Positions 7,657 to 58,737 of a stretch of 64,000 bases of DNA are shown here, one piece after another. The stretch's first letter is position 1, and every line of letters begins with the position of its first letter. The stretch is taken from positions 824,177-888,176 of the forward strand of contig CAWEES010000002.1 in the NCBI GenBank assembly GCA_963808245.1. The letters are read 5' to 3'. A program made the translations under genes and the position numbers. Source of the DNA: an uncultured Bacteroidota bacterium (GTDB lineage Bacteria > Bacteroidota > Ignavibacteria > Kryptoniales > JAKASW01). The notes under the pieces are model-generated. The model did not search any database. It saw only the letters and a list, made by a program, of their open reading frames with translations, and was not told where the DNA came from.

Positions 7657-7680
7657 TCACACGCAAATAAGTACGTATAC

Positions 7681-7712: not shown

Positions 7713-7738
7713 GAGATAGATGCTTGTTAAGTGACGCG

Positions 7739-16209: not shown

Positions 16210-16223
16210 ACTACCCAATATAT

Positions 16224-16297
16224 AAAAAAAAGACAAAAGTCAAAGGTTAAAACTTTTTCAGAATTCTTTCGAATTCTTATTATTAACCTTTGACTTT
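16224..16297 (-). terminator. ssrA terminator-like hairpin (15-bp perfect stem, 32-nt loop, T-tract)
   Basis: AAAGTCAAAGGTTAA (16236-16250) pairs with TTAACCTTTGACTTT (16283-16297). An 8-T run follows on the - strand. Confidence 0.6.
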
Positions 16298-26433: not shown

Positions 26434-26506
<73 letters not shown>

Positions 26507-28164: not shown

Positions 28165-29205
28165 GTGGGTTTAGTGAAAAGAATAACGATAGACGATGTC
28201 GCCAAGGAAGCAGGGGTTTCAAAAGGAACTGTCTCCGCTGTTATTAACACAAAAAATTCCGTAAAGCCGGGGACACGCGATCACATATTGGGAGTAATGA
28301 AAGACCTTAACTTCCGTCCGAGGGGAGTTGCAAGAAATTTAAAAAATGGAATCCAAGATAAAGCAATCGCCATAATAATAAAAGATTTGAATTATCCTTT
28401 CTACACTTCGATAGCTACCGGCGTAAAAGATTACGCAAGCAGCAAAGGATACTCCGTGATCATTACAAGCTCCGATGATAATCACGAAAGCGAAAAAAAA
28501 CTATCACATCTTTTTTCTACAAAGGACATCAAGGGGACCATCATAGCCCCCGTTGTTGAGGGCACCGCGGAGATCGAACATCTCTTCAAATTAAAAATGA
28601 TAAATTATCCTTTTGTCCTGTTAGAGGGTGTTAAAGGAATTCAAGCTAATGTTGTTGCGATTGACAACTTAAGAGCAATCAAGAAAGCCGTGAAGTATTT
28701 GATAGAAGGGGGCCATAAAAAAATTGTGCACTTCGCCGGGCCTCCGCAATCGTCCCATACTCAGGAACGTATTGAAGGTTTCCGTGATGCCTTTAGTGAA
28801 AGCACTTCCGTATTCAATAAAGATATGATCGTATCGATAGGTTCTCACTACGATGAAAGCTTTGCCAAGACGATAGAGTATTTTAAGAGAAGACCGAGGG
28901 AACAATATCCGACAGCGATTGTATGTTTTAACGATCACCAAGCTCTTGCCGTCATGGCGGCACTTAAAGAGCTGAATATTTCCGTGCCGCGTGATATATC
29001 CATTATCGGAAATGACGATATCTATTACGCAAGAATTTATCCCATCCCGTTAACAACAATAAGAGCCCCTCAACATGAGATCGGCACAATGGCCGCAGAG
29101 ATATTGATTCGTAACATAGAGTCTCCGAAGTTGTTGCCGGTAGAAAAAGTTGTTTTAGAAACCGAATTCATTATCAGAGAGTCTACAAGGGTTTTAAACG
29201 ACTGA
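28165..29205 (+). CDS. LacI-family transcriptional regulator
   Basis: ITIDDVAKEAGVSKGTVSAV HTH, NFRP..VAR, IIGNDD, LTTI. Confidence 0.95.
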   Translation: MGLVKRITIDDVAKEAGVSKGTVSAVINTKNSVKPGTRDHILGVMKDLNFRPRGVARNLKNGIQDKAIAIIIKDLNYPFYTSIATGVKDYASSKGYSVIITSSDDNHESEKKLSHLFSTKDIKGTIIAPVVEGTAEIEHLFKLKMINYPFVLLEGVKGIQANVVAIDNLRAIKKAVKYLIEGGHKKIVHFAGPPQSSHTQERIEGFRDAFSESTSVFNKDMIVSIGSHYDESFAKTIEYFKRRPREQYPTAIVCFNDHQALAVMAALKELNISVPRDISIIGNDDIYYARIYPIPLTTIRAPQHEIGTMAAEILIRNIESPKLLPVEKVVLETEFIIRESTRVLND

Positions 29206-29315
29206 TAAAGTGCTCGGAATTACTGCCTTCCCGGTATTCGCGCGGCAACCAATAAAATTTTTCGGTACCAAAAAAAATGCAAGAGGACTATCATTCCTAC
29301 GTGGGGAAAAATCGA

Positions 29316-30509
29316 ATGACATTTGAACAAACCTGGAGATGGTTCGGTCCGAACGACCCTATCTCTCTAAAAGAAATCAGGCAGACGGGGGCAACAGGTA
29401 TCGTCACTGCCCTTCATCAAGTTCCAATCGGGGAAACCTGGACTATCGAAGAGATTACGGATAGAAAGCAACTGATAGAGAAGGAAGCCCTGACATGGTC
29501 TGTAACTGAAAGCATCCCGGTTCACGAAGATATTAAGAAGCGCAATGGTAATTTTCGAAAGCGCGTGGAAAACTACAAAGAGACAATAAGAAATCTCGGC
29601 AAGTGCGGGATTGATATCGTCTGCTATAATTTCATGCCCGTCCTCGATTGGCTACGGACCGATCTGAGGGTCATTTTTGAAGACGGATCGATTACAACAA
29701 AGTTCGAGAGAAAGGTTTTAGCAGCATTCGACATTTTCATTCTAAAACGAAATAAAGCGGAGAATGATTACAGCGACCAGGAAGTTAAGGAGGCTGAACG
29801 GTACTACAAAAGCATGACAGACAGTCAGCACGAGACATTGCTTCAGACGATTCTTCTTGGATTGCCCGGTTCATTAGAGGCTTATACCTTAGAAACGTTT
29901 AGATCTGAACTGGGGAAGTATGAAAACATCGGCGCCGGCGAACTCCGTGAGAACCTGAAATATTTTTTGAAGGAAATCATCCCGGTCGCCGAAGAATCCG
30001 GCGTGTTCCTTGGAATTCATCCCGACGATCCGCCATTCCCGCTGTTCGGTTTGCCGAGAGTTGTTAGCAGCAAAACCGACTTTGAACAAATCCTTGCAGT
30101 GGCTGATTCACCTTCCAACGGGATTACGCACTGCCCTGGCTCGTTGGCCGCTTCTTCCAGCAATGACGTTGTCGATATGTCGGAGAAACTCGCACAAAGA
30201 ATTAACTTCATCCACTTGCGGAATGTGAAGAGAGATGGTAACGGCGGGTTTGTCGAAGACAATCATCTTGATGGAGACGTAGACATGTACGGTGTTATGA
30301 AACCGCTCATACTTGAGCAAAAACGTCGAATAGACAAGGGGTTGAAGAACTCGCGACTACCGATGCGACCGGATCACGGACACCTTATGATTCCTGACCA
30401 AAACAGAAAAGGTATCTACCCGGGTTATTCCTTATTCGGCAGGATGAGGGGTCTGGCTGAACTGCGAGGATTGGAACTCGGAATCAGGCGCTCTTTAGGT
30501 TTTAAATAG
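29316..30509 (+). CDS. uxuA: Mannonate dehydratase
   Basis: TWRWFGP.D, ESIPVHE, CYNFMPVLDW, HPDDPP, HLRN, MRPDHGH, PGYS. Confidence 0.95.
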   Translation: MTFEQTWRWFGPNDPISLKEIRQTGATGIVTALHQVPIGETWTIEEITDRKQLIEKEALTWSVTESIPVHEDIKKRNGNFRKRVENYKETIRNLGKCGIDIVCYNFMPVLDWLRTDLRVIFEDGSITTKFERKVLAAFDIFILKRNKAENDYSDQEVKEAERYYKSMTDSQHETLLQTILLGLPGSLEAYTLETFRSELGKYENIGAGELRENLKYFLKEIIPVAEESGVFLGIHPDDPPFPLFGLPRVVSSKTDFEQILAVADSPSNGITHCPGSLAASSSNDVVDMSEKLAQRINFIHLRNVKRDGNGGFVEDNHLDGDVDMYGVMKPLILEQKRRIDKGLKNSRLPMRPDHGHLMIPDQNRKGIYPGYSLFGRMRGLAELRGLELGIRRSLGFK

Positions 30510-30534: not shown

Positions 30535-31947
30535 TCATAGTTTATACGCCTTCTTGACGAGATTGTAAGTCAAGTCCTTTGCTATGGTAAGCGCTTCGCC
30601 CATGCTTATTATATGTTTAGCGACAAGCCCCCCAAGAAAATTCGAGTCAACTCTCCTGGCGACATCGTGTCTTGCCGGGATAGATACAAAAGCTCGTGTG
30701 TCATCGTTGAACCCAACGGTATTGTAGAACCCGGCAGTCTCGGTGACCATCTGCCGGTATCTCGTCATTCCCTGGATGCTGTCGTTGAACCACCATGGAG
30801 GCCCTAACTTCATCGCCGGATAATATCCAGCCAGCGGCGCGAGCTCGCGCGAGTAAGTACTCTCATCGAGTGTAAATACAATAACTGTCAACGAGGAATT
30901 ATTCCCATATTTATTCAGCAGCCCTTTCAAGTTGTAGGTGAATTCCGTCTGCACCGGAATATCGTTGCCTTTATCAGGTCCCCATTTCTCGGTAAATCCG
31001 GTATTGTGACCGCGGCAGGAACCGGGATGAATCTGCATCACTATCCCATCTTCCGTGCTCATCCTCGCCATCTCCATCAGCATATGAGCCGTAAACAATT
31101 TTGCGTCGTCCGGCGTGCTCGTTCCCTTCAAACCCCTTTTGAAAATTTCTTCAGCTTCCCTACCGGTTAATTCATGAGTGTAAGGAGATACCACTCCATG
31201 ATCGGATGCCGTGGCTCCCATTTTCTTGAAATACGAGCGGCGATCCTGAAGTGCGTCAACATACTTTTGAAACGAAGTTAACTCCAGTCCGGTTCTTTCT
31301 CCAAGCAGTTTTACATTCTTAGCCCAATCCCTGTTCATTAAATCCGTAACTGCATCCGGGCGGAAACATGGTATGATTCTCCCGTCCCAGCCGGAGTCTT
31401 TAATCCTTCTATGATGTTCAAGAGGATCGGAAGCGCCATCCGTAGTCGATAAGACTTCCATATTAAACCTTTTGAAGAGCGCTCTCGGAAGGAACTCCGG
31501 AGAATTAATTTTCTCGTTGAGTTGCTCGTAAATCTTCATGGCGTTGCCGCCGTTCAGCTTCTCCTTCACTCCGAAGACCACGTTGAATTCATAGTCGAGC
31601 CAAACACCGCTCGGCGTACCATTGAACAAATAATAATGCTCGGCGAAAATTTGCCAGATCCTTTTCGGATCTTTCTCCACCCTGCTTCCATCGGCCATAG
31701 GCACGCCGAGAGATTCGAGGCTGATCCCCTGGGAATACAGCATCCTGAAAAGATAATGATCCGGGATCAATATAAGTTCGGTCGGATTGGGGAAAGGTTT
31801 ATTCTCCGAAAAGATCCTCGGGTCGACATGTCCGTGAGGACTGATTATCGGGAGATCTTTGACGCTCTCATAAATTTCCCTTGCGTTTTGCCTGACTACC
31901 GGATTCGAATCGAAAAATCTGTCCGGATGAAGTTCGTATTTTTCCAT
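30535..31947 (-). CDS. uxaC: Glucuronate (uronate) isomerase
   Basis: IISPHGH, PDHYLFRMLYSQG, MQIHPG, LGPPWWF, GFNDDTRAF.SIPARHD. Confidence 0.95.
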   Translation of the reverse strand: MEKYELHPDRFFDSNPVVRQNAREIYESVKDLPIISPHGHVDPRIFSENKPFPNPTELILIPDHYLFRMLYSQGISLESLGVPMADGSRVEKDPKRIWQIFAEHYYLFNGTPSGVWLDYEFNVVFGVKEKLNGGNAMKIYEQLNEKINSPEFLPRALFKRFNMEVLSTTDGASDPLEHHRRIKDSGWDGRIIPCFRPDAVTDLMNRDWAKNVKLLGERTGLELTSFQKYVDALQDRRSYFKKMGATASDHGVVSPYTHELTGREAEEIFKRGLKGTSTPDDAKLFTAHMLMEMARMSTEDGIVMQIHPGSCRGHNTGFTEKWGPDKGNDIPVQTEFTYNLKGLLNKYGNNSSLTVIVFTLDESTYSRELAPLAGYYPAMKLGPPWWFNDSIQGMTRYRQMVTETAGFYNTVGFNDDTRAFVSIPARHDVARRVDSNFLGGLVAKHIISMGEALTIAKDLTYNLVKKAYKL

Positions 31948-32175: not shown

Positions 32176-33312
32176 TCAGTGGAACCTTTCTAAGGTGCTC
32201 ACCTTGTAATAAGACTCAAGCCGTAGATTGTGGAATTTACCAGTTTCGTCTTTCGCATCTCCGGAATCATTCGCTGAACATATGAGCATATAAGAACCTA
32301 CGACGTAAAACTCTTTGTTGCTCACTGAATGTAATATTAATTTTCTTTTTGCGGGATTTGTAAAAACAAGGTGATCGTGATCTAACGCAATGCTGTAAAC
32401 TGCGCCCGCAGAATCTTTATAGCTCCCGGTGTACCGCACTAGAATGGATCGATCGACGTGAAATGGTACACGGGCAAAAACCGTTTGAAGTCCCCATGTA
32501 TACCCTAAAGCCTTCGTTCCGGAATGTCCTACTCCGTTAAGCACTTTCGCTTCAAGACTCAGTCCTCGGTAGTGCCTCGATTTCAGAAGTTGCACAAATT
32601 TCTGGAACGTGGGCACATCTTCATATTCACCGATTCCCATGAATACTCTTGCTGGAATAGCGGCGTCCTTTCCCGCAAAAGTCTTTTCATATTTATAGAT
32701 GATTCCATTGTCCCATGTCAATGCCGGGCTCGTCAGTATGTAACGATTGAACAATGTGGTTTCGTTAAAGATCGTATACAGGGTAAACAGTCCGCCAAGA
32801 GAAGTTCCGAGAAGTGTCCGGTCGTTTCTATCAACCCGGTACTTCGATTCGATAAGTGGAATCAACTCGGTCTTGATGAATTGAAGAAACTTTGGAGCTC
32901 CGCCTCCCTGCGGGACTTCCTTAGTAGGACTGGGAGTGAGATCTCCGGCTCTCAGGGAATCATAGTTCGCATTTGCCCCGCTGCAGGTTATTCCGACAAC
33001 AACCATTCCCGGTATAAAACCGTCATAGAATTGGGATCCGTAAATGCTCTCCACTAGAGGGAAATCCCATTGCCCATCTAATAAATAGACTACCGGAAAA
33101 ATCTTGCTCGTATCTCCGTATCCTCTCGGGAGATTAACGTAAAGGTCGTACTTCTCATTAGTGATCGCGGAAGTAATACTCAGAAATTGAGTCCCAGCAA
33201 TTTTTACCTCAGGCGGCGACACTTCGGACATTGCAGTATCCGTTTGAGCAAACAGAGTCGTTCCCGAGAGTAACAAAAAGGTGAACCTTAGAAATGGGAT
33301 TATTCGAGCCAT
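32176..33312 (-). CDS. Secreted alpha/beta-hydrolase esterase (IroE/BesA-, CE1-like)
   Basis: Signal peptide, VVYLLDG, GTSLGG nucleophile elbow. Confidence 0.8.
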   Translation of the reverse strand: MARIIPFLRFTFLLLSGTTLFAQTDTAMSEVSPPEVKIAGTQFLSITSAITNEKYDLYVNLPRGYGDTSKIFPVVYLLDGQWDFPLVESIYGSQFYDGFIPGMVVVGITCSGANANYDSLRAGDLTPSPTKEVPQGGGAPKFLQFIKTELIPLIESKYRVDRNDRTLLGTSLGGLFTLYTIFNETTLFNRYILTSPALTWDNGIIYKYEKTFAGKDAAIPARVFMGIGEYEDVPTFQKFVQLLKSRHYRGLSLEAKVLNGVGHSGTKALGYTWGLQTVFARVPFHVDRSILVRYTGSYKDSAGAVYSIALDHDHLVFTNPAKRKLILHSVSNKEFYVVGSYMLICSANDSGDAKDETGKFHNLRLESYYKVSTLERFH

Positions 33313-33431: not shown

Positions 33432-34307
33432 CTAACTGGCAATGCTTGCGGCCGGGATCCTCGTCACGAGGTCCAGCATTTCGTCCTGATTTTCCTGTCC
33501 GATAGTAAACGCATCGACAAAATCGAGACCGAGAATATATTTCAAGCATTCATCCTTTTTATTGACAAGCCGTCCGGCTCCAAAAATTTTCATCCCGACA
33601 ATCCCTTTTCCAACGTCGTGCATTTTCTTCAGTACCTTCGAGACAGTCGAGACTTCTGCGTCCATGATGATTCCTTCCGGATTGATCCGCGCAAAGTCAA
33701 CCTGTACCCAATCTGAATTCGATGCTGCCTGCAGCGCTCCCAGCGTATGACATGAGACCCCATGCGCACGAATTATACCGTTTTCCCGGGCTCTCTCCAG
33801 CACCTCCATGGCACCTTCCTTTTCAATCGGCCAATCGGTGTTTGTCATCATGTGCAAAAGGATTACGTCAATATAATCTGTACCGATCTCCTTACGAAAA
33901 CGGTCCAGGTCGTATTTCATTTCATCGGCTGTGGTCGACTCGGCCTTAGTTAGAATCGCGACTTTTTCACGCGGGATACTCTTCAGGGCTTCCTTAAGAT
34001 CAGGATGCGTTCCGTATTGATCTGCCGAATCCCAGAAATTAATGCCCTGGTCGTAAGCTTTACGCAATAGATCAGGAAGACTTCCAGGGCCGGACTCTCT
34101 CGATTGGTCCGATTGATGATTAAAACCATGAGTTCCCGTTCCCATCGCGAGCCGTGAGACTTTAATTCCGGTTTTACCGAGCGTCACGACATCGTTTGCA
34201 TATTTTTTCTTTGCCTCGTTGCCAAACACTTTCGCATGGGGCGAGAGCGTTAACGCCCCGGCGGTTAGTGCGGTGTATTTTATAAATTCACGTCTTCTCA
34301 TCTTCAC
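33432..34307 (-). CDS. Aldo/keto reductase with twin-arginine signal
   Basis: RRREFIK Tat motif, LGKTGIKVSRL.MGT, DSADQYG, TDYIDVILLH. Confidence 0.85.
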   Translation of the reverse strand: MKMRRREFIKYTALTAGALTLSPHAKVFGNEAKKKYANDVVTLGKTGIKVSRLAMGTGTHGFNHQSDQSRESGPGSLPDLLRKAYDQGINFWDSADQYGTHPDLKEALKSIPREKVAILTKAESTTADEMKYDLDRFRKEIGTDYIDVILLHMMTNTDWPIEKEGAMEVLERARENGIIRAHGVSCHTLGALQAASNSDWVQVDFARINPEGIIMDAEVSTVSKVLKKMHDVGKGIVGMKIFGAGRLVNKKDECLKYILGLDFVDAFTIGQENQDEMLDLVTRIPAASIAS

Positions 34308-34391: not shown

Positions 34392-35420
34392 TTAATTCCC
34401 TTTGACCGCCCGGATAAAAGCTCTTATGTTTTCCGAGCTTACAGCGGGCGGCATTCCTCCTCCGCATGAAAGCATCACCCTGGACTTGTCTTTAACCGAA
34501 CTTACTAGATCAACCGTTGTCTTCGTTACTTGTTCAGGAGTTCCGCCTGCAAGAACATCGCGCGGCGGTATGTTGCCGAGAAGGGTAACTTTGTTTTGTG
34601 TCAGTTGTTTCAGCTCATTCAGCGTGACATCGAATCCCATATTGAATAAATTGACTCCCATTTCGGGAAGAAACTTAGCGGACTCTTTGCAGGGCGCGTC
34701 ATTGTGAAGGAACCTGACCGAGACATTCGCGTCGAAGAGTTCCTTGAAATACGGCAGCCCGAAGGTCTCAAACTCCGCTGCTCCCATGAACCCGATTATG
34801 TCGTCAAGCATAAAAATCCCGTCTATCGAAGGAAATGTTTCCATCTGCAGATGGAGCCAATCTTTCAAGTAGGCAGTGATTTTCTTCATGAGTATCTCTG
34901 CCTTTTCAGGTTCCATCATAATCATCGTAAGAAATTCGGTTGAACCCATCAGGTAGCTGGCCACATTCAGCGGTCCGCGACAAACCGCGAACCGGATCTT
35001 GTGTCCGGCAGCCTCAATTTTCGGTTCCGCGAGTTTAAGCCTGTTAACGACAAAGGGTAAAAGACCATCCGTTTTCGGATTCGGCTGAGGCAGAGAATCA
35101 ATGTCTTCGGATGATTGAATGATTTTATGCGCGAAAGGAAATTCGTTTTGTGGAAAGGTACACCTCACTCCGAATGCCGATGGCTCAGTACACATGCCGA
35201 ACTCCGACCAAAATCCCGGAAGAAAAGTGGCTTCGGGAAACTCATTCATTGCTTCCAGGTTCGCATTCAACCACAGCCCGTCATTTGAGAAATAATCCAA
35301 AATGCTTATACCGAACCAATTAGGAAGCCATGGACTGTCAATTATAAAACCTACCGGCAAAGGATCCACGATTTCTCCCTTAATAACCTGCAAAAGTTCT
35401 TCCCACTGCTGTTCTGTCAT
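34392..35420 (-). CDS. URO-D superfamily protein, MtaA/CmuA-like putative methyltransferase
   Basis: RGPLNVASYLMG, LHNDA, LLGNIPP...GTPEQV, LSCGGGMPP...ENI. Lacks the HemE RQAGRY motif. Confidence 0.75.
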   Translation of the reverse strand: MTEQQWEELLQVIKGEIVDPLPVGFIIDSPWLPNWFGISILDYFSNDGLWLNANLEAMNEFPEATFLPGFWSEFGMCTEPSAFGVRCTFPQNEFPFAHKIIQSSEDIDSLPQPNPKTDGLLPFVVNRLKLAEPKIEAAGHKIRFAVCRGPLNVASYLMGSTEFLTMIMMEPEKAEILMKKITAYLKDWLHLQMETFPSIDGIFMLDDIIGFMGAAEFETFGLPYFKELFDANVSVRFLHNDAPCKESAKFLPEMGVNLFNMGFDVTLNELKQLTQNKVTLLGNIPPRDVLAGGTPEQVTKTTVDLVSSVKDKSRVMLSCGGGMPPAVSSENIRAFIRAVKGN

Positions 35421-35434
35421 TTTAACCGTCCTTT

Positions 35435-36328
35435 TTATTCAAAAACAATCGTTCGTTTGCCATGTACCAATATGCGATGCCGTGCATGGTGGTACAAGGC
35501 GCGGGCTAATATCAGGCGTTCAATGTCTCTCCCTTTCCGCACCAGATCGCTCACCGTATCTTTATGCGAAATACGGATAATGTCTTGCTCTATTATCGGA
35601 CCCTCATCGAGTTCTTCCGTAACATAGTGGCTCGTTGCGCCGATAATCTTTACGCCGCGCTCGTAAGCTTGCCGGTAGGGATCACCTCCCGCAAATGCCG
35701 GCAGGAATGAGTGGTGGATATTTATGATCCGATTCGGATATTCGCGGACAACCTGCGCAGTTAAAACTTGCATGTAGCGCGCCAGCACGATGGTATCAAT
35801 TTTGTGTTCCATTAGTAAAGCTAATTCTTTTCTCTCAAGTTCGAGCTTATTCTCATTTACAACGGGAAATACATGATACGGGATGGAATAGTGCTCGGCA
35901 AGTCCGCGTAAATCTTCATGATTGGAGATGATGATAGGGATCTCGATATTGAATTCCCCCAGCCGCTGTCGCCACAAAATTTCCTGGAGACAATGATCGA
36001 ATTTTGATACAAAAATCGCCACCCGAAGATTCTTTCCGGTGAAGTTAATCTTGAACGCGGCATCGAATTCTTTCGCCAATGGTGAAAACGCCTCTGTCAC
36101 TTCTGACTCTGGTACCGAAAAATTCTTCATATCCCAGGCGATGCGGATGAAAAACTGTTTATCCTCGACGTCAACATGCTCATCCAAATCAAGGATGTTG
36201 CCGCCTCGTTCGAAAACAAAATGAGAAATCCTGGAAATTAAACCGGTTCGGTCCTTGCAGGAAAGGAGAAGGATCGCACTTCCGGACGTTTTGTTAGAAT
36301 AGTTATTTTCAGGCACGACAAACTCCAT
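35435..36328 (-). CDS. purU: Formyltetrahydrofolate deformylase
   Basis: N-terminal ACT domain (SCKDRTGL), VSK.DHCL, LARYMQVL, INIHHSFLPAF.G..PY.QA, DEGPIIEQ. Confidence 0.95.
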   Translation of the reverse strand: MEFVVPENNYSNKTSGSAILLLSCKDRTGLISRISHFVFERGGNILDLDEHVDVEDKQFFIRIAWDMKNFSVPESEVTEAFSPLAKEFDAAFKINFTGKNLRVAIFVSKFDHCLQEILWRQRLGEFNIEIPIIISNHEDLRGLAEHYSIPYHVFPVVNENKLELERKELALLMEHKIDTIVLARYMQVLTAQVVREYPNRIINIHHSFLPAFAGGDPYRQAYERGVKIIGATSHYVTEELDEGPIIEQDIIRISHKDTVSDLVRKGRDIERLILARALYHHARHRILVHGKRTIVFE

Positions 36329-36453: not shown

Positions 36454-38310
36454 CTATTGTATTGGCGGATATGCTCCGACATACAGTCCTTCTCTCCTGG
36501 AACCGTCAAGAAGTGTCTTGACCTCTTCCGGAAGGTCGGTTCCCATTCTCGCCCCCGAAAAATCCGATAACAATCGATAATGTCCTAATTCCGCACTCTT
36601 GAACAAAGGGCCGTCGTATTTAACATAGGATCGCCCGCCAGCCTCAAAGTTCGTATACATCTTTCGGAGATCCCCTAATGAATCAAATCCCGTCTGGCAG
36701 TTCTCATCCGCTGCGGGGCTCCACAAAATCATCGGATAAAGAGGATTCCCAGCCTGACGAACATAAACGTTGTGATCAAGCTGGCTAAGTTCCGGTTTCG
36801 TAAGTTGACTGCACAAAGCAGCAGGCTGCCAAACGAAAAGAAGCGGTCTCGTGAAACTCTCATCGCCTGTAAGCAGATTATTGATAAATACGTGTCCCTC
36901 GCGTTTATCGACGTCAGGCCCCGTGCTGGAGTGCCAGCCAAAACGATCTCCTGCCGGAACTCGCGCGTTCCTACCGATGCAAGCGATACTATTTACAAAA
37001 GTGTTCTGGTAAATTTTTGCGTTGGAACTATTCAGTATCATCATGCCATGGTCACAATTCACAAAGACATTCCCCGCTACCGTAACTCCTTTTGATATTT
37101 CAAAGAAGAATCCGTTGTTGCTCGGCCAGAGCTGATCGGTTGGGGTTGTCTTACTGACTTTACCGACTCCCTCGACCCAGTTATTGACGAAAACACCGTC
37201 TACTTCACCGACATCATACCACACGCCGTTCGAATTCGGGAGGTCGATAATCAGGTTGTCCCGGCAAACCGCCCTGTGACATTGATTGAATATCTTAACT
37301 GCGGCAGGAAAATACCCGCTTGTGCTGTCAATGTTATTCCGTGTGAAGATGTTCTTTTCCAGTAATATATCATTTGAACCTATTACGTAAACACCTTCAG
37401 TCCTCGTATCGCTTATTTTACAGTGCCGAATAATCAGATGATCCCCGCGGAAGTATCCTGCGACGCGGGAGCAATAAGAAATTGTGCAATTTTCCAAAGT
37501 TGTACCGACTACATCTTTTCCGAACTTCGACTCATCGGTTACTCCCACAGGTTCTGTGCCTTCGACCTCGAGGGCGCGATACGCGTACTGCGTGAAGGTG
37601 ATACCGCGAATGTCGTATCCTTTGTGGTCCGATTCCTTACCATGACATTTCCCGGTAATCCTGACGATAGCTGCATCATGGTCAGTGATTTCGACCAGCC
37701 GATTCGTAGGATCGGTACCGATGTAGACAAGACTATCTTCGTAATCGATGTAGTAAGAATTCGAATCAACAGCCCCCAGCCAGCCGGTCGGCAATAAGTA
37801 CCTTCCATCGATAAACACCATATCGTTGTTGAAACGCCATAGCGGAGTTTTTCTTCCGTCGATACCGCGCGGCCACCAACTCTCAGGTTTTGATGGGAAC
37901 AGATGAGACCATTTTGTTACCCAAACACCGTTTTTGAGATCCTTCCAGTTCGTGGCAACCCCGGTCCCTTTCAGTATCGGCTGTTCATTTTCGTAGGGTT
38001 GTATCGTGATACCCTGGTTCAGCACCAGGTTACCTGTACGGTACGTACCGCCGCGCATAACGATTGCATCGCCCGATCGTACACGATCAATCGCGGCCGC
38101 AAGCGTTGTCGGGTTGCTTAATGACTCCCCGGACCGGGCTGAGTCCCCGTCGACTGCGACGTAATATATTTTTCCTGCCACCGTCGGCAATCTGTAAAAT
38201 TGTCGAATTGGACCGTATGGCCCGCCGGATGGCTGTGCCATGACTGTCGTCCAACTTAAACTCAGGCACAAAGTAGAAAGGATGAATAAGAATCGAAGAA
38301 AACATTTCAT
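36454..38310 (-). CDS. Secreted right-handed parallel beta-helix protein, function unknown
   Basis: Signal peptide, YYVA..G...GES...PTTL..AI, IVMRGGTY, repeated Asn-ladder strands. Confidence 0.75.
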   Translation of the reverse strand: MKCFLRFLFILSTLCLSLSWTTVMAQPSGGPYGPIRQFYRLPTVAGKIYYVAVDGDSARSGESLSNPTTLAAAIDRVRSGDAIVMRGGTYRTGNLVLNQGITIQPYENEQPILKGTGVATNWKDLKNGVWVTKWSHLFPSKPESWWPRGIDGRKTPLWRFNNDMVFIDGRYLLPTGWLGAVDSNSYYIDYEDSLVYIGTDPTNRLVEITDHDAAIVRITGKCHGKESDHKGYDIRGITFTQYAYRALEVEGTEPVGVTDESKFGKDVVGTTLENCTISYCSRVAGYFRGDHLIIRHCKISDTRTEGVYVIGSNDILLEKNIFTRNNIDSTSGYFPAAVKIFNQCHRAVCRDNLIIDLPNSNGVWYDVGEVDGVFVNNWVEGVGKVSKTTPTDQLWPSNNGFFFEISKGVTVAGNVFVNCDHGMMILNSSNAKIYQNTFVNSIACIGRNARVPAGDRFGWHSSTGPDVDKREGHVFINNLLTGDESFTRPLLFVWQPAALCSQLTKPELSQLDHNVYVRQAGNPLYPMILWSPAADENCQTGFDSLGDLRKMYTNFEAGGRSYVKYDGPLFKSAELGHYRLLSDFSGARMGTDLPEEVKTLLDGSRREGLYVGAYPPIQ

Positions 38311-38393: not shown

Positions 38394-39398
38394 TTAATTT
38401 CTCTCACCTACCGGATGGGAAGATACATATTGACAAAGCCACTCAAGAGCCGGCCTTTCTCTGAGGTCTGTGTGAACTAAGTAAGTATTCGGACGCCACG
38501 TCTGTCTCTCAACGTAACCCCACAATGTTATGCCTTCTACTTGAGGGTCATTCCAGAATATCGGAATCTGCTCCTTGAAAATCTCAAGTTGCCTGGCATC
38601 ATTAGCCTCGTCAACATCGTATTCGGATATATAAATCGGAAGCCCTGCCCCTTCAAGCAGCTTTAGATTCGATTTTATGGTGTTTGTATCTACCCTCTCA
38701 AGACCATGCCCCTGGCAACCGATGCCGTCGATAAGATTTCTTGCCTTTAGCAGATTAACGATCTCAATATACTCCCGAGTATTTACAGAATCGCTCAAGA
38801 TATTGTAATCATTAATAAGGAGCTTTGCATTTGGAAAAGCCTTTCGTGCCTTTTCAAATGACCATATTACCCAATCCCAACCTGTCCGGCCATCGCCCCC
38901 GAGAGCATTTTTGTAGAAAGCCGGTTTCTGTATCGGCTCGTTCACTACATCAACATACGTCGACTTCGAGTATCTTTCTCCACAGAGCCTGATCCATGCT
39001 TCGACCATTTTCTTCTGTTGAACCAGGTCAAGGCCACCGGTCCATGAGGGTTGTTGTTGTCCCCAGACAAGGTTATGAAATTTAAACGGATAACCTTTCT
39101 GGAGTGCATAATCATATATTCTATCCAGTTGCGACCAGTCCCATAGATTCGTATCGGGGCTAATCCCGACCACACCCCATTTGCCTGCATTCTCTGGAGT
39201 AACCTGGCTCCAATATTTTCCGAAGTCGGCCGGGATAGACGAACCGATGATATTTCCAAGAAACTTGCGATTCCCCTCGTGAGTCTGGCAAAACAGCTGC
39301 ACCGGCAAAAGCACCAACGAACTGAAAAGCATAAGGGTGATGGACCTATCAATTTTGACTATATGTTGTTTCATTCCTCGTGACATAATTATTTCCAC
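38394..39398 (-). CDS. GH10 endo-1,4-beta-xylanase (catalytic domain only)
   Basis: VTPENAGKW, HNLVW, DVVNEP (acid/base), YISEYD (nucleophile). Confidence 0.93.
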   Translation of the reverse strand: MEIIMSRGMKQHIVKIDRSITLMLFSSLVLLPVQLFCQTHEGNRKFLGNIIGSSIPADFGKYWSQVTPENAGKWGVVGISPDTNLWDWSQLDRIYDYALQKGYPFKFHNLVWGQQQPSWTGGLDLVQQKKMVEAWIRLCGERYSKSTYVDVVNEPIQKPAFYKNALGGDGRTGWDWVIWSFEKARKAFPNAKLLINDYNILSDSVNTREYIEIVNLLKARNLIDGIGCQGHGLERVDTNTIKSNLKLLEGAGLPIYISEYDVDEANDARQLEIFKEQIPIFWNDPQVEGITLWGYVERQTWRPNTYLVHTDLRERPALEWLCQYVSSHPVGERN

Positions 39399-39491
39399 CT
39401 AAAGACTTTGAGCCAGGAAGACGGAACCCGTGATCTGGTTTCATTCATTTCAATAGTCTGACTCAGTCCGTTTCCATCAAACCATGTACCA

Positions 39492-41438
39492 TTAGTTCGA
39501 AACGAATGTCGTCACACTCGATGGACCCAGTGTAGTTATGAAGCTGCCGTTAGATAGCGCGATATTATTCCCTTGCAAACAATTCTCTGTGCTCGATGTA
39601 ACGTATGGCGTATACGAACTTGCCGTTCCACCTTGCACAGTGAACGGTAGAGTCACCGCAGTGGAGCCCATATTTAAAGCTACGATCACTACTTTTGCGC
39701 CATTCCTGTAAGCTGTCACAAACGTATTCGACACGGGGCTCGCGGTAGCACTGACGCGATAAAACCCGGGACGAACAAATCTGGCGAATTGAGATATGAC
39801 ATATCCTTTATGAGTTACATTGCCGGTGTTTGCGGAATTGAATTGACCATCATCGATTGGACCATAAAATCTTACAATGTACCACCAAACGTAGGCGCTC
39901 ATATTGTAACTCATGCAATCATTAATAGTCTTCGCTGTCTGCATGGCGCCAGCCCAGCCCGTGTCAACACTAGTAGGATTTGTGTTGGAGCCGCTATTTA
40001 TCAAATATTCCGTCATCCACAACTCTTTTCCTTTTTGCAGAGCAAGGGGATATTGAACTGACGATTGAACGTCACCTTTAGTATCGACATCTCCGTACAA
40101 ATGTCCGCCTATAAAGGCAACATGCGCCGCGGCAAGAGAATCGTTGAGCGTTGAATCAGAGAGCGAATGTCTATAACCCTCAGATTCAGGCATGAAAACA
40201 GGGACGCCAACCGCCGGTGCATTGTACCTCATGAAGTTCATAAATTGCGTCGCATTCCAGTCACACGATTGATAAGATACGCCGGCATCCGGTTCGTTTT
40301 GAACGGAGATACCGTATAATGATACCCCATGTTCAGTCATGGTATCGGCGAATGCCTTCAGATGTGCGGCGTATGCCGCATAATCACTCTGAATAAGAGA
40401 GCCGCCAGCAGTGGTATCATTGGTCTTCATCCATGAAGGAGGCGTCCATGGTGTTGCAATAATTGTCGCGCCGAGATTCTGAGCGGCCAGCGCCGAAGGG
40501 GCATTAGCGGCAAACTGTGTAGAGTCAGGCGGAATGGAAAGGCGCATTATGGTCAGCCCAACCTGTCCTGTGCCATTGCCGAATGCCGTCTGCACTTCGG
40601 CGGGTGTCATGTCTGGACGGAAAATTAAAGTGTTTGCTCCGCCGAATCCTCTTATGATTTGTTTGGTACTGTCAAGATATACGATTGCTTGAGGGAGGCT
40701 AACACTGAAATTGATTGACGTGTCGCTTTGAATGACGGTGTTGCCGAATTGTTTGGACACGATTGTGGGCGAAGTGCTGTCGGTATTTGATATTTCGACC
40801 ACAAAAGTTTCTGAACTGGAAAGAATCCCATTAGGAGCACTTTGAATTTCGTCAGCTCCCATCATTGCTTGCGATGATACTATCCCTGGAAGCAGGACTG
40901 AATTCGCGCTTCCTCCCACTCCGAATACCATTTTCCTAACTTGAGCTTCACCGCCGGCTTGAAGCTTATAGAAATAGACTCCGGGCACAACCTCTTTGCC
41001 AAAATCGTTTCTGCCATTCCACACTATGCCGTGAGATCCTGCCGCCTGGTAACCGGCATCGAATCTCCGTATCTCTCTCCCAAGGACATCGTAAATCGAC
41101 ACCTTTACATCTGACTGATTTTTCAACGCGTACGATATGGCGGTAGAGGATGAAAACGGGTTTGGATAATTCTGCTCGAGTTTGAAATCTTTAGGCGGCT
41201 GACTCGCTTGCTTCACTGCCGTAATCGGACTGAGTGAAAAAGCTCCCGTTGAGTCTGTCACCGCATTGTATTGGATGGAGAAGTTATAACTGTCTAAGAA
41301 AGTGATCGACGCATACCGGACAGGGATCCCGGATGCAGTCACGATACCCTTGACGGAATACGTATTCGCACGAACGGAAAACGGAATAGCTGCCAGCATT
41401 GTTAGAGCCAACAAAAGATTTATTTGTGCATTTTTCAT
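39492..41438 (-). CDS. GH30_8 glucuronoxylanase with internal T9SS-CTD-like domain (paralog A)
   Basis: IRGFGG, TPWTPP.WMK, SVQNEPD, WMTE, AYVWWYIVRFYG. EQNYPNPF lies near the N-terminus. Confidence 0.9.
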   Translation of the reverse strand: MKNAQINLLLALTMLAAIPFSVRANTYSVKGIVTASGIPVRYASITFLDSYNFSIQYNAVTDSTGAFSLSPITAVKQASQPPKDFKLEQNYPNPFSSSTAISYALKNQSDVKVSIYDVLGREIRRFDAGYQAAGSHGIVWNGRNDFGKEVVPGVYFYKLQAGGEAQVRKMVFGVGGSANSVLLPGIVSSQAMMGADEIQSAPNGILSSSETFVVEISNTDSTSPTIVSKQFGNTVIQSDTSINFSVSLPQAIVYLDSTKQIIRGFGGANTLIFRPDMTPAEVQTAFGNGTGQVGLTIMRLSIPPDSTQFAANAPSALAAQNLGATIIATPWTPPSWMKTNDTTAGGSLIQSDYAAYAAHLKAFADTMTEHGVSLYGISVQNEPDAGVSYQSCDWNATQFMNFMRYNAPAVGVPVFMPESEGYRHSLSDSTLNDSLAAAHVAFIGGHLYGDVDTKGDVQSSVQYPLALQKGKELWMTEYLINSGSNTNPTSVDTGWAGAMQTAKTINDCMSYNMSAYVWWYIVRFYGPIDDGQFNSANTGNVTHKGYVISQFARFVRPGFYRVSATASPVSNTFVTAYRNGAKVVIVALNMGSTAVTLPFTVQGGTASSYTPYVTSSTENCLQGNNIALSNGSFITTLGPSSVTTFVSN

Positions 41439-41518
41439 AAAGTTTCTCCTTAAATATCAACAAGTAATATCCAGCAAGCTTGAAAGATTCCGACCATTGC
41501 CTTTGGAACCTCGCAAGA

Positions 41519-42868: not shown

Positions 42869-43024
42869 TTTAGATTCATTGTTATCCGGTCAATAAATTC
42901 TATCATACCCCGACTTCCCTGGAAGGATGTTCCTTGCCGGATAATTGATAAAAGGACCGATTAGATCGCTTTCAGAAGAATGAGTATTCAAAATTTCTTT
43001 CCTGTTCAATACACTTTCGGGTGT

Positions 43025-44908: not shown

Positions 44909-44935
44909 GTTAATCTTTTCACTTCCAATTGATCT

Positions 44936-49105: not shown

Positions 49106-49111
49106 GGCATT

Positions 49112-51067: not shown

Positions 51068-51121
51068 CTATGTCAAACTCCTTTGGCGTACCACGATCCT
51101 CTACTCAATGATGCCGATTAT

Positions 51122-57300: not shown

Positions 57301-57363
57301 TCTTTTTAATTGTATAGAACTCTTTACTCGCTGTGATTCTGCAGAATTATCCAGAGTTTTCAT
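54315..57363 (-). pseudogene. GH115 alpha-(4-O-methyl)glucuronidase split by a frameshift near 55165-55175 (ORFs 55162-57363 and 54315-55259)
   Basis: GSDKRGTIYGIY, YRGIFLNDE, LWPAMW, DDNWG, YYHFDY in the first ORF. VSIEAEHY and LKIWMVDPGV in the second. The frames join at SWPG..|DDAVLP. Confidence 0.8.
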
Positions 57364-58662: not shown

Positions 58663-58737
58663 AACCTTTTGATAAATAAACCCGTCCACAGATCATGCAG
58701 ACCACCATGGACGGGCTGATGTTACATTTACAAATCT

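What the first reader, a model, noticed from the sequence alone, without database searches (positions are those of the whole stretch)
34392..36328. Candidate 4-O-methylglucuronate demethylation / C1-disposal module inside a glucuronoxylan locus
Seen: purU and a URO-D-fold gene sit 14 nt apart, co-oriented, between the xylanases and uxaC. The URO-D protein lacks HemE's RQAGRY. It has H-N-D...SC where Zn-dependent MtaA/CmuA methyltransferases have HxC...C. Established: GH115 and CE15 act on 4-O-methylglucuronoyl groups, the UxaC/UxuB/UxuA route processes unmethylated glucuronate, and PurU converts formyl-THF to formate and frees THF. Inference: the URO-D protein removes the 4-O-methyl group via a corrinoid or THF, and PurU vents the C1 unit. 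I know of no characterised bacterial enzyme for this step. No corrinoid protein or activator is visible in this window.
Basis: partly seen in the sequence, partly recalled or inferred. Interest (0 to 1): 0.85.

Follow-up and report, generated by a model that had tools for sequence, protein, structure and literature searches.

The report
Candidate B12-dependent methyl-sugar demethylase in xylan locus
A gene that looks like a haem-synthesis enzyme but sits in a xylan-degradation locus is most likely the methyl-removing part of a vitamin-B12-dependent system that strips the methyl group from the wood sugar 4-O-methylglucuronic acid and passes it to homocysteine, a step for which no enzyme is known; the neighbouring purU gene is probably not part of it.

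Summary
A 342-aa URO-D-fold gene (34392..35420, -) lies 14 nt after a true purU (35435..36328, -) inside a glucuronoxylan locus (GH8, GH115, CE15, GH43, GH10, GH30, uxaC, uxuA). The protein is neither HemE nor MtaA.

New evidence comes from 80 orthologous loci (68-84% identity). In 40 of the 60 with at least 4 kb upstream, the gene follows a corrinoid protein, a homocysteine S-methyltransferase domain or a MetH-type activation protein. All three are present in 30, usually right after GH115-GH43.

- In 151 genomes of the class, 13 of 15 with the ortholog have GH115, against 2 of 136 without it.
- 73 of 80 ortholog-bearing genomes have GH115 or GH67.
- purU is adjacent in only 4 of those 60 loci.

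The window's genome keeps the corrinoid, activation and homocysteine-methyltransferase genes 1.7 Mb away. A complex model docks that corrinoid protein on the URO-D protein (0.77; best control 0.11).

Best reading: this is methyltransferase I of a split, MetH-like O-demethylase for 4-O-methylglucuronate, with homocysteine rather than folate as acceptor. The PurU/THF "venting" idea is not. No activity was measured. The substrate is inferred, and ferulate is the main rival.

The parts
34392..35420 (-). URO-D-superfamily protein (342 aa), candidate methyltransferase I (methyl-sugar:corrinoid methyltransferase). No signal peptide by inspection.
   Evidence: PF01208 126 bits; far below the HemE and MtaA cut-offs. 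AlphaFold pLDDT 96.9. Z 32.6 to MtaA 4ay7 and 32.2 to human UROD. Orthologue context.
35421..35434 (-). 14-nt spacer between the purU stop and the URO-D start, with an AAGGA-like ribosome-binding site
   Evidence: no terminator-like site here
35435..36328 (-). purU, formyltetrahydrofolate deformylase (ACT + formyltransferase domains); the only purU found in the genome
   Evidence: TIGR00655 389.7 bits > 285.95. A tblastn of the genome finds no second copy, only distant formyltransferase paralogues.
33432..34307 (-). Aldo/keto reductase with a twin-arginine-like leader (MKMRRREF...). It follows the URO-D gene in 6 of 80 related loci.
32176..33312 (-). PF00756 'putative esterase' with a signal peptide; a frequent downstream neighbour of the orthologues (18 of 80 loci)
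30535..31947 (-). UxaC glucuronate isomerase
29277..30509 (+). UxuA mannonate dehydratase
28165..29205 (+). LacI-family regulator
36454..38310 (-). Secreted right-handed beta-helix protein, recurrent in related xylan loci (8 loci)
38394..46507 (-). GH10, GH30 (T9SS), CE4 (T9SS), GH30 (T9SS), GH10 (T9SS) xylanase/deacetylase block
46546..47403 (-). Short-chain dehydrogenase (KduD/UxuB-like)
47315..54318 (-). GH43 beta-xylosidase/arabinofuranosidase, SASA-type acetylesterase, GH35-like/DUF5597, CE15 glucuronoyl esterase
54315..57363 (-). GH115 alpha-glucuronidase, split into two overlapping ORFs by one frameshift near 55173. It has an N-terminal hydrophobic leader.
57376..58689 (-). GH8

Best explanation
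The URO-D-fold protein is the substrate-specific methyltransferase I of a four-part, corrinoid-dependent methyl-transfer system built like a split methionine synthase. Proposed cycle, with each step marked as shown or inferred. (1) Exported GH115 (and GH67) release 4-O-methylglucuronate from glucuronoxylan. This is the known activity of those families; the genes are shown here. (2) The acid is imported. An anion:cation-symporter-type MFS gene accompanies the orthologues in 21 of 80 loci, but none is in this window. (3) Inferred: the cytoplasmic URO-D protein moves the 4-O-methyl group onto Co(I) of a ~220-aa corrinoid protein, leaving glucuronate for UxaC/UxuB/UxuA. (4) Inferred from conserved linkage and intact Zn-Cys ligands: a stand-alone homocysteine S-methyltransferase domain passes the methyl from methyl-Co(III) to homocysteine, giving methionine. 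(5) Inferred: a MetH-activation-domain protein with an intact RxxxGY motif re-methylates oxidised cofactor with SAM. In most relatives the four genes form one operon directly behind GH115-GH43. In this genome and its close relatives, purU sits where the three partner genes usually are. Here the partners are encoded 1.7 Mb away (C2:2550864-2555640), in a second cassette next to GH31 and a sugar transporter. purU is most likely a lineage-specific neighbour, not a step of the pathway.
For: (a) Not HemE or MtaA: 64 bits against 303 for TIGR01464 and 69 against 235 for TIGR01463. It has no RQAGRY, while a true HemE exists elsewhere. It carries HND where the in-genome MtaA-like paralogues carry HxC.
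(b) Conserved operon. Of 60 orthologous loci with >=4 kb upstream, 37 have the corrinoid protein, 35 the Hcy methyltransferase and 34 the activation protein within 4.5 kb upstream on the same strand. 40 have at least one and 30 have all three. Gaps are -1 to ~80 nt.
(c) Partner identities: PF02607+PF02310, PF02574, PF02965. In the alignments (36, 35 and 32 sequences), at least 95% keep DxHDxGK (corrinoid protein), Cys210/Cys276/Cys277 with GGCCGTTP (Hcy methyltransferase), and RYSPGY = RxxxGY plus a CxxCx4C tail (activation protein).
(d) Link to alpha-glucuronidase. GH115 lies in 24 of 80 loci, often immediately upstream; minimal arrangements are GH115-UROD-MFS or GH115-UROD-GH3. In 151 genomes of the class, 13 have both, 2 have the URO-D orthologue only, 2 have GH115 only and 134 have neither. 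69 of 80 orthologue-bearing genomes have GH115 and 4 more have GH67.
(e) Orphan orthologues still have partners. 5 of 5 genomes whose orthologue lacks an adjacent cassette encode a stand-alone corrinoid protein (47-52% identity) and a stand-alone Hcy methyltransferase (37-59%).
(f) This genome has corrinoid protein - URO-D paralogue a - activation protein - URO-D paralogue b - Hcy methyltransferase at 2.55 Mb. In the closest relative, L001, the orthologous cassette (74-85% identity) lies 3.7 kb downstream of its purU-UROD pair.
(g) Complex prediction of the window protein with this genome's corrinoid protein: score 0.77, best of 3 controls 0.11. The mark was reached by 58 of 80 solved complexes and 2 of 110 mismatched pairs. 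The runs agree in >=83% of contacts and the partner's pLDDT is >=83. The interface joins the barrel's C-terminal face to the DxHDIGK loop and the cap helix.
(h) Family-wide conserved residues D/E73, E79, D/E206, H239, D/E241 and N283. By my reading of the strand ends in the secondary structure they sit at the C-terminal ends of the barrel strands. R148, R127, R143 and H140 are conserved among close orthologues (R148, R127 and H140 invariant, R143 in >=90%) but not across the wider family, which fits an anionic substrate.
(i) Precedent: the UroD superfamily holds corrinoid-dependent methyltransferases I that cleave methyl ethers and methyl halides (OdmB, VdmB, MtvB, MtoB, CdmB). Sources: PMC13222342 (passages read) and bioRxiv 10.1101/2023.07.31.551370 (first of three parts of the Results, plus passages).
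Against: No activity was measured and no expression data were obtainable.
- As far as I know (recalled, and in line with the passages read), every characterised UroD-type methyltransferase I acts on aryl methyl ethers or halomethanes. A secondary sugar alkoxide is a much poorer leaving group.
- The protein is not close in sequence to that clade (CdmB chain E 0.63).
- 35 of 80 loci show no homologue of the window's xylan/uronate genes within the DNA held. Many of these loci are short, but 12 with long flanks have heterogeneous neighbours.
- 7 of 80 orthologue-bearing genomes show neither GH115 nor GH67, and two more have only 45-bit GH115-like matches. Their completeness is unknown.
- The commonest downstream neighbour is a PF00756 esterase, a family that I recall includes feruloyl esterases. 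Co-occurrence with xylan degradation therefore cannot exclude ferulate as the methyl donor.
- In the window itself the partners are absent. The distant cassette has two URO-D paralogues of its own and sits in a GH31 locus.
- The window's GH115 carries a frameshift.
- By my rough stoichiometry (an inference, not computed by any search), the methyl supply from xylan would far exceed the cell's methionine demand. A further sink is needed and is not identified.
- The fold does not separate methyltransferase from decarboxylase (Z 32.6 vs 32.2).
Confidence: 0.5

Rival explanations
1. Same corrinoid/homocysteine machinery, but the methyl donor is an aryl methyl ether released from xylan. The candidates are ferulate, freed by the neighbouring PF00756 esterase from feruloylated arabinoxylan, or lignin-derived methoxy-aromatics freed with the help of CE15. 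The URO-D protein would then be a classical phenyl-methyl-ether O-demethylase with an unusual acceptor.
For: All characterised UroD-type O-demethylases use aryl methyl ethers (PMC13222342 passages; bioRxiv 10.1101/2023.07.31.551370). This chemistry is easier. A PF00756 esterase is the most frequent downstream neighbour: 12 of 73 immediate neighbours and 18 of 80 loci. GH43 is frequent in the loci.
Against: The tightest and most widespread CAZyme link is to GH115. Minimal loci are GH115-UROD-MFS, without an esterase. The genome-level tie is to GH115/GH67. An acid-sugar-type MFS (TIGR00893-like) and the uxuA/uxaC/SDR genes accompany the gene. No aromatic-catabolism genes stood out among the neighbours. 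The protein is not close to CdmB, the one solved chain of the aryl-ether/haloalkane methyltransferase I clade in the PDB copy searched. Basic residues conserved among close orthologues but not family-wide suit a sugar acid, though ferulate is also an acid.
Confidence: 0.17
2. The methyl group goes via a corrinoid to tetrahydrofolate, is oxidised through MetF and FolD to 10-formyl-THF, and PurU releases it as formate. This is a cmu-like C1-disposal module.
For: purU-UROD are 14 nt apart and co-oriented. The pair is kept while the upstream neighbour differs in L001, L002, L004 and L046. purU sits exactly where the three partner genes sit in other genomes. MetF (fused to an Hcy methyltransferase) and FolD exist in the genome. 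Recalled, not tested: the chloromethane pathway of Methylobacterium couples a UroD-type methyltransferase to metF, folD and purU. A sink for surplus methyl groups is needed.
Against: purU is adjacent in 4 of 60 informative loci. The window and three of those loci form one clade, and the fourth is unresolved. No PurU over the cut-off was found in 2 of 5 cassette-bearing genomes; in the other 3 it lies on places not in the loci. The conserved acceptor module binds homocysteine, not pterin. Pterin_bind occurs only in FolP and canonical MetH here, so there is no CmuB/MtvA-type methyltransferase II. This purU is the genome's only copy, so it is a housekeeping gene.
Confidence: 0.08
3. A corrinoid-dependent methyltransferase for some other donor that merely travels with glycan loci. 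Candidates are another O-methyl sugar, methanol from methyl esters, or a methylated thiol. Alternatively the cassette is simply an alternative methionine synthase with no tie to xylan.
For: Related URO-D/corrinoid clusters sit beside GH31 in this genome and beside GH38 in the genome of L046. 12 long-flank loci have no xylan genes nearby. A canonical MetH shows that methionine synthesis is the shared output.
Against: The orthologue group defined at >=60% identity tracks GH115/GH67, not GH31 or GH38. The paralogues in the other clusters are only 20-30% identical to the window protein, so they probably have other substrates. A canonical MetH is already present.
Confidence: 0.15
4. Not a methyltransferase at all: a cofactor-less decarboxylase or other enzyme of the URO-D fold that acts on a uronic acid or a xylan side group.
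For: The fold is as close to HemE as to MtaA. No Cys-rich zinc site is present.
Against: The HemE substrate-binding motif is absent. The conserved operon with a corrinoid protein, an Hcy methyltransferase and a cobalamin-reactivation protein has no rationale for a decarboxylase. The predicted docking places the corrinoid protein's cobalamin loop on the barrel mouth.
Confidence: 0.05

Closest known systems
Corrinoid-dependent aryl O-demethylase systems of anaerobes (OdmABCD/VdmB of Acetobacterium dehalogenans, MtvABC of Moorella thermoacetica, MtoABCD of Methermicoccus) and the chloromethane system CdmBCA
   Same: A UroD-superfamily methyltransferase I plus a separate ~22-kDa corrinoid protein, a second methyltransferase and an activating protein, encoded together. 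The methyl group is taken from an ether or halide by Co(I).
   Different: Here the presumed donor is a carbohydrate (alkyl) methyl ether. The acceptor module is a homocysteine-binding PF02574 domain instead of a pterin-binding THF/H4MPT methyltransferase. The activator is a SAM-type MetH activation domain instead of an ATP-dependent RACo/RamA (none found). The protein is compact (342 aa) and not close in sequence to CdmB (E 0.63). The hosts are non-acetogenic polysaccharide degraders of the Bacteroidota/Ignavibacteriota group.
Cobalamin-dependent methionine synthase MetH
   Same: The same three modules are present as separate proteins: an Hcy domain with its Cys triad, a B12-binding cap plus Rossmann domain with DxHxxG, and an activation domain with RxxxGY. 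The product would be methionine.
   Different: The methyl-THF (pterin) barrel is replaced by a URO-D barrel. The genes are embedded in xylan loci. A canonical MetH is present as well.
MtaA/MtbA/CmuA-type methylcobamide:thiol methyltransferases (TIGR01463)
   Same: Same fold (Z 32.6, rmsd 2.7 A over 326 residues to M. mazei MtaA 4ay7); works with a corrinoid protein.
   Different: 69 bits against a cut-off of 235. It has HND...SC instead of HxC...C. The partner Hcy methyltransferase already supplies the thiol-methylating half reaction, so this protein should run the donor half reaction.
Uroporphyrinogen decarboxylase HemE
   Same: Fold (Z ~32) and Pfam family.
   Different: No RQAGRY; 64 bits against 303. 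The genome has its own HemE.
cmu chloromethane pathway (CmuA, CmuB, MetF, FolD, PurU) of Methylobacterium (recalled, not checked here)
   Same: A UroD-type methyltransferase gene next to purU, as in this window.
   Different: No CmuB-type pterin methyltransferase is found in this genome. The purU linkage is confined to the window's own clade plus one other locus.
Oxidative demethylation of 6-O-methyl-galactose by cytochrome P450 in marine Bacteroidetes (recalled, not checked here)
   Same: It solves the same problem, removing a methyl ether from a sugar so that the standard catabolic route can proceed, and it is encoded in a polysaccharide locus.
   Different: It is O2-dependent and releases formaldehyde. 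The system here would be oxygen-independent and would conserve the methyl group.

Membership tests
URO-D superfamily (PF01208) | Profile match over the gathering score and the (beta/alpha)8 URO-D fold | tested here: met
   126.2 bits against 23.9 over residues 7-340. Model pLDDT 96.9. Z 32 to MtaA and UROD.
HemE uroporphyrinogen decarboxylase | Equivalog score (TIGR01464 >= 302.95) | tested here: not met
   64.2 bits
HemE uroporphyrinogen decarboxylase | N-terminal RQAGRY substrate-binding motif (the motif's role is recalled) | tested here: not met
   Absent from the window protein; present in the genome's true HemE.
MtaA/CmuA methylcobamide:CoM methyltransferases (TIGR01463) | Subfamily score >= 235.4 | tested here: not met
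   68.8 bits, and only residues 145-340 match.
MtaA/CmuA methylcobamide:CoM methyltransferases (TIGR01463) | HxC...C zinc ligands for thiol activation (motif recalled) | tested here: not met
   H239-N240-D241. The in-genome MtaA-like paralogues align with HNC/HIC and a later GC.
Corrinoid-dependent methyltransferase I (substrate:corrinoid protein methyltransferase) | Encoded with a cognate corrinoid protein | tested here: met
   Corrinoid protein within 4.5 kb upstream in 37 of 60 orthologous loci. A stand-alone corrinoid protein was found elsewhere in 5 of 5 orphan genomes and in this genome.
Corrinoid-dependent methyltransferase I (substrate:corrinoid protein methyltransferase) | Physical interaction with the corrinoid protein | tested here: inconclusive
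   Prediction only: score 0.77, best control 0.11. The mark was reached by 58 of 80 solved and 2 of 110 mismatched pairs. Contacts agree >=83% and the partner's pLDDT is >=83.
Corrinoid-dependent methyltransferase I (substrate:corrinoid protein methyltransferase) | Methyl transfer from substrate to Co(I) | not testable with these tools
   Needs an anaerobic enzyme assay.
Aryl-ether/haloalkane methyltransferase I clade (OdmB, VdmB, MtvB, MtoB, CdmB) | Sequence kinship with characterised members | tested here: inconclusive
   Only CdmB is in the PDB sequence set searched: E 0.63, 12 bits.
Split MetH-like methionine-forming system (partners) | Hcy domain with three Zn-binding Cys; B12 domain with DxHxxG; activation domain with RxxxGY (motif roles recalled) | tested here: met
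   Each is kept in at least 95% of the sequences aligned (35, 36 and 32): Cys210/276/277, D112-x-H114-D115-x-G117, and R165-Y-S-P-G169-Y170. Pfam PF02574, PF02607+PF02310, PF02965.
Split MetH-like methionine-forming system (partners) | Pterin-binding methyl-THF domain | tested here: not met
   No PF00809 gene in the cassettes. In the genome it occurs only in FolP and canonical MetH.
cmu-like C1-disposal module (methyltransferase + MetF + FolD + PurU) | Conserved linkage of purU to the methyltransferase, and a methylcorrinoid:THF methyltransferase | tested here: not met
   purU adjacent in 4 of 60 loci. No dedicated pterin methyltransferase. metF and folD are unlinked.

The most novel reading that the evidence does not exclude
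Anaerobic and facultative polysaccharide degraders of the FCB group and neighbouring phyla possess a previously undescribed class of cobalamin-dependent carbohydrate O-demethylases. A URO-D-fold methyltransferase takes the methyl ether off a sugar (here 4-O-methylglucuronate from glucuronoxylan). A dedicated corrinoid protein and a stand-alone homocysteine methyltransferase then turn it into methionine. Sister cassettes beside GH31 and GH38 genes may do the same for other methylated sugars. This would fill the missing step between alpha-glucuronidase and the UxaC pathway, and would make plant-wall methyl ethers a direct methyl source for SAM metabolism and a new B12-dependent trait in glycan degradation.
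Probability: 0.45. Interest if true: 0.9.

Novelty: new variant of a known kind. Interest (0 to 1): 0.8.

Why it matters
4-O-methylglucuronic acid decorates roughly every sixth to tenth xylose of hardwood xylan (recalled). alpha-Glucuronidases release it in methylated form, whereas the UxaC/UxuB/UxuA route takes glucuronate.

I know of no enzyme for removing this methyl ether. Eight full-text searches aimed at that question found no paper on such an enzyme. The one paper holding both terms is a 2010 review on lignin, seen only in the listing. The library lacks most subscription journals.

If the reading is right, it would have four consequences.
- It identifies the missing catabolic step and makes it directly testable with four small soluble proteins.
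- It extends corrinoid-dependent ether cleavage from aromatic to carbohydrate methyl ethers.
- It shows a natural methionine synthase that uses a plant-wall methyl group instead of methyl-THF.
- It predicts a vitamin-B12 requirement for full glucuronoxylan use in peat, sediment and digester communities.

It would also give biomass conversion an oxygen-independent demethylase. The family is large: a single search returned 7,999 proteins with E <= 0.001 among the 8,000 candidates scored, and the best 120 were 76-100% identical to the query, the top one being the window's own protein. All are annotated only as 'uroporphyrinogen decarboxylase family protein'.

Tried and rejected
HemE function was rejected. 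MtaA-type thiol methyltransferase was rejected on score and motif.

Fold comparison (Foldseek, VIA) cannot separate decarboxylase from methyltransferase. CdmB was not among the rows.

No cobalamin or other riboswitch was found in the window, the second cassette or three related loci; only tmRNA and one tRNA matched. Promoter and terminator scans gave nothing decisive.

Expression: no RNA holder was listed for window:34392-36328.

Atlas: the window protein is not held. The stored homologue P0005 only returned 'URO-D family' clusters.

Neighbours of the stand-alone corrinoid proteins in five orphan genomes were not homologous to the cassette genes at E 1e-6. Pfam showed sugar-type enzymes in one case and a URO-D paralogue with GH38 in another.

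The tally of 106 neighbour proteins from 12 long-flank loci without xylan markers showed no dominant alternative context. From the 13 loci listed I dropped all L071 rows, as a near-duplicate of L070. I then dropped two proteins of 1360 and 1537 aa for the size limit.

The first context count lost 7 of 80 loci to my crude ORF calling (L040, L066, L069, L072, L074, L075, L076). It was replaced by the tblastn count over all 80.

The tree is the quick tree; the careful search did not finish, and I did not rerun it.

Supplementary files of the two papers were not opened and may hold family trees that bear on where this clade sits. Most subscription-journal papers are not in the library, so 'not in print' means only 'not found'.

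Papers: I read the outline, the first of three parts of the Results and found passages of bioRxiv 10.1101/2023.07.31.551370. For PMC13222342 I read found passages only. The other titles were seen only in listings.

Full report
OBSERVATION. A 342-aa ORF lies at 34392..35420 (-) and a 297-aa ORF at 35435..36328 (-). They are separated by 14 nt with a ribosome-binding-like AAGGA and no terminator-like hairpin. The upstream gene is a bona fide purU: TIGR00655 389.7 bits against a cut-off of 285.95, with ACT and formyltransferase domains. A tblastn of the whole genome finds no second copy. The downstream gene matches Pfam URO-D (126 bits) but falls far below every curated family: hemE 64 against 303, MtaA/CmuA 69 against 235.

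The surrounding 30 kb is an unmistakable glucuronoxylan locus on the same strand. It holds GH8, GH115, CE15, a GH35-like protein, a SASA esterase, GH43, an SDR, GH10, GH30, CE4, GH30, GH10 and a beta-helix protein. Then come purU, the URO-D gene, an AKR with a twin-arginine-like leader, a PF00756 esterase and uxaC, with uxuA and a LacI regulator opposite.

The genome has a separate HemE with the RQAGRY motif, which the window protein lacks. H239-N240-D241 and S318-C319 are present. Two MtaA-like paralogues of the same genome align there with HNC/HIC and a later Cys.

WHAT THE RELATIVES SHOW. The protein belongs to a large, tightly conserved family. One search returned 7,999 proteins with E <= 0.001 among the 8,000 candidates scored. 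The best 120 were 76-100% identical, the top one being the window's own protein, and all are annotated only as 'uroporphyrinogen decarboxylase family'. I fetched 80 orthologous loci of 68-84% identity from Bacteroidota, Ignavibacteriota, Kryptoniota, Calditrichota, KSB1, Fibrobacterota, Spirochaetota, Verrucomicrobiota and Lentisphaerota.

Clustering their ORFs revealed a recurrent operon: (GH8)-GH115-GH43-c1-c2-c3-UROD-(esterase/AKR/MFS).
- c1 is a 222-aa corrinoid protein (PF02607+PF02310).
- c2 is a 294-aa homocysteine S-methyltransferase domain (PF02574).
- c3 is a 250-aa MetH-activation-like protein (PF02965).

In the alignments (36, 35 and 32 sequences), at least 95% keep the signatures:
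- DxHDxGK in c1;
- Cys210 and Cys276-Cys277 (GGCCGTTP) in c2;
- RYSPGY (RxxxGY) plus a CxxCx4C tail in c3.

The functional meaning of these motifs in MetH is recalled. Gaps between the genes are -1 to about 80 nt.

A tblastn recount over all 80 loci gave these figures for the 60 loci with at least 4 kb upstream:
- c1 in 37, c2 in 35, c3 in 34;
- at least one in 40, all three in 30;
- purU in 4;
- neither cassette nor purU in 16.

Homologues of the window's xylan and uronate genes occur as follows, each out of 80 loci:
- GH115: 24
- GH43: 26
- GH10: 18
- GH8: 15
- PF00756 esterase: 18
- LacI: 17
- SDR: 16
- UxuA: 11
- At least one marker: 45
- The MFS transporter of the galactonate/hexuronate type: 21

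Minimal arrangements such as GH115-UROD-MFS and LacI-GH8-GH115-UROD-GH3 occur in several lineages.

GENOME-LEVEL TESTS. In a sample of 151 genomes of the window's class, 15 have the orthologue and 15 have GH115. Thirteen have both and two have only the orthologue; of those two, one copy is truncated and that genome has GH67. Two have only GH115 and 134 have neither. These genomes are related, so no P value is given, but the 13 are spread over six families. In a 401-genome sample of the phylum, orthologues of at least 60% identity were found in 13 genomes, all in the window's class.

Of the 80 genomes behind the loci, 69 have GH115 over the Pfam cut-off. Two of those have only 45-bit partial matches. 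Four of the remaining 11 have GH67, and seven have neither. Completeness of these assemblies is unknown.

A falsification test for corrinoid dependence used five genomes whose orthologue has no adjacent cassette. All five encode a stand-alone corrinoid protein of 47-52% identity and a stand-alone c2-like homocysteine methyltransferase of 37-59% identity.

THIS GENOME. The window has no corrinoid gene, but the genome has a second cassette at C2:2550864-2555640. Its order is corrinoid protein (53% to c1), a 122-aa ORF, URO-D paralogue a, activation protein, URO-D paralogue b, and homocysteine methyltransferase (54% to c2). A secreted DUF4380 protein and a GH31 lie upstream; a sugar transporter and a phosphofructokinase lie downstream.

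In the closest relative (L001, 84%), the orthologous cassette (74-85% identity to this genome's) lies only 3.7 kb beyond its own purU-UROD-AKR-uxuA-lacI block. In this clade, therefore, the partners belong to the same neighbourhood and have been separated in the window's genome.

A structure-based complex prediction of the window protein with this genome's corrinoid protein passed. The score was 0.77 and the best of three controls 0.11. The mark was reached by 58 of 80 solved complexes and 2 of 110 mismatched pairs. The runs agree in at least 83% of contacts and the partner's pLDDT is at least 83. My own alignments were used, so the counts hold only roughly. The interface joins the C-terminal face of the barrel (residues 160-170, 211-216, 246, 287-288, 325) to the corrinoid protein's cap helix and its DxHDIGK loop. 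This supports binding but does not show it.

The genome also has canonical MetH with a pterin domain, a YitJ-like homocysteine methyltransferase-MTHFR fusion and FolD. No RACo/RamA was found.

MECHANISM. The cassette has the three MetH modules that handle homocysteine, cobalamin and reactivation. It lacks the pterin barrel, and a URO-D barrel stands in its place. The homocysteine domain supplies the acceptor half reaction, so the URO-D protein should run the donor half reaction, as methyltransferase I.

That UroD-superfamily proteins do exactly this for methyl ethers and methyl halides is established for OdmB, VdmB, MtvB, MtoB and CdmB. The sources are PMC13222342 (passages read) and bioRxiv 10.1101/2023.07.31.551370 (first of three parts of the Results, plus passages).

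The model (pLDDT 96.9) is a compact TIM barrel, equally near MtaA (Z 32.6) and human UROD (Z 32.2). The family-wide conserved residues are D/E73, E79, D/E206, H239, D/E241 and N283. By my reading of the secondary structure they sit at the C-terminal ends of the strands. This acid/His cluster differs from the Cys-rich site of thiol methyltransferases and would suit protonation or metal activation of an ether oxygen.

R148, R127, R143 and H140 are conserved among close orthologues (R148, R127 and H140 invariant, R143 in at least 90%) but not across the wider family. That fits an anionic substrate.

The donor that best explains the context is 4-O-methylglucuronate. The arguments are:
- the adjacency to GH115;
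- the genome-level tie to GH115/GH67;
- the acid-sugar transporter;
- the uxaC/uxuA/SDR genes, which need the demethylated product.

The protein has no signal peptide, whereas GH115 has a hydrophobic leader (by inspection). Demethylation would therefore follow import.

WHAT SPEAKS AGAINST.
- Nothing was measured.
- A sugar alkoxide is a poor leaving group compared with phenolate.
- The PF00756 esterase next door keeps ferulate in play as donor.
- 35 of 80 loci show no xylan marker in the DNA held, and 12 long ones have heterogeneous neighbours.
- Seven carrier genomes show no alpha-glucuronidase.
- In the window the partners act in trans, and its GH115 is frameshifted.
- By my rough estimate (an inference, not computed), xylan would deliver far more methyl groups than methionine synthesis can absorb, so an unidentified sink is needed.

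PURU. The purU-UROD pair is found in the window and in L001, L002, L004 and L046. The window and the first three form one clade (SH-aLRT 95, quick tree only). The position of L046 is unresolved, so one origin is not excluded. The upstream neighbour differs among them, and purU occupies the slot of c1-c3, which is curious.

Even so, the case against a pathway role is stronger. The pairing is rare (4 of 60). PurU was not found over the cut-off in 2 of 5 cassette-bearing genomes and lies elsewhere in the other 3. It is this genome's only purU. No methylcorrinoid:THF methyltransferase exists here. I rate a direct 'venting' role at under 10%. An indirect role in rebalancing folate pools when methionine is made from another methyl source is possible but untested.

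COMPARISON AND NOVELTY. The system works like an aryl O-demethylase crossed with a split MetH. It is not a member of HemE or MtaA/CmuA, since both tests were not met. Kinship to the OdmB/MtvB/CdmB clade could not be established.

Eight searches aimed at methyl-sugar demethylation found no paper on such an enzyme. The single hit is a 2010 lignin review seen only in the listing, and most subscription journals are outside the library. I file it as a new variant of a known kind.

VERDICT. Observation confirmed. Interpretation partly supported: corrinoid-dependent demethylation yes, PurU/THF disposal no, and the acceptor is most likely homocysteine. Confidence is about 0.8 that this is a corrinoid-dependent methyltransferase, and about 0.5 for the full statement with 4-O-methylglucuronate as donor. 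Interest 0.8.

Noticed in passing
window 54315-57363 (-): GH115 is split into two overlapping ORFs (733 aa and 314 aa). Homology to a 990-aa relative switches from frame -2 to frame -3 at about 55171-55175 with no loss of residues. This is a single frameshift: either a real pseudogene or an assembly error. The genome also has a GH67 at C2:3682540-3683496.
   Followed up: partly
own genome C2:2546001-2558681 (locus L085): A second corrinoid cassette (corrinoid protein, two MtaA-like URO-D paralogues with HxC motifs, activation protein, Hcy methyltransferase) lies between a T9SS-secreted DUF4380 protein plus a GH31 with a PA14 insert and a sugar transporter plus a phosphofructokinase. It may demethylate a different methylated sugar.
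   Followed up: partly
L099 (genome of L046), 4181-8620: A URO-D paralogue, a GH38 alpha-mannosidase and a corrinoid protein lie side by side. This is a third kind of glycoside-hydrolase locus with URO-D/corrinoid genes.
   Followed up: no
13 of the loci L001-L080 (e.g. L011, L014, L019, L023, L037, L054): A second URO-D paralogue, only 22-27% identical to the window protein, lies a few genes downstream of the orthologue in the same xylan locus. Its role is unknown.
   Followed up: no
window 33432-34307 (-): The aldo/keto reductase next to the URO-D gene starts with MKMRRREFIKYTALTAGALTL, a twin-arginine-like export signal. A periplasmic AKR in a xylan locus is unusual. It recurs in 6 of 80 related loci.
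   Followed up: no
L059 and L073 (GH115 ORFs): The GH115 genes directly upstream of the URO-D orthologue are about 1450-1510 aa long, half as long again as usual, which suggests a fused extra domain.
   Followed up: no
window 16303-16667 (-) and 26434-26506 (+): A tmRNA gene and a tRNA gene (Rfam, over gathering score).
   Followed up: no
window 7739-9868 (-): A multihaem cytochrome (MtrC/MtrF-like domains, paired CXXCH) with a T9SS sorting domain, that is, a secreted multihaem protein in a T9SS organism.
   Followed up: no
window 10964-16236 (-): A trehalose cluster (trehalose phosphatase, TreT-like GT, DUF5752, MscS channel, GT20 trehalose-6-phosphate synthase), unrelated to the finding.
   Followed up: no
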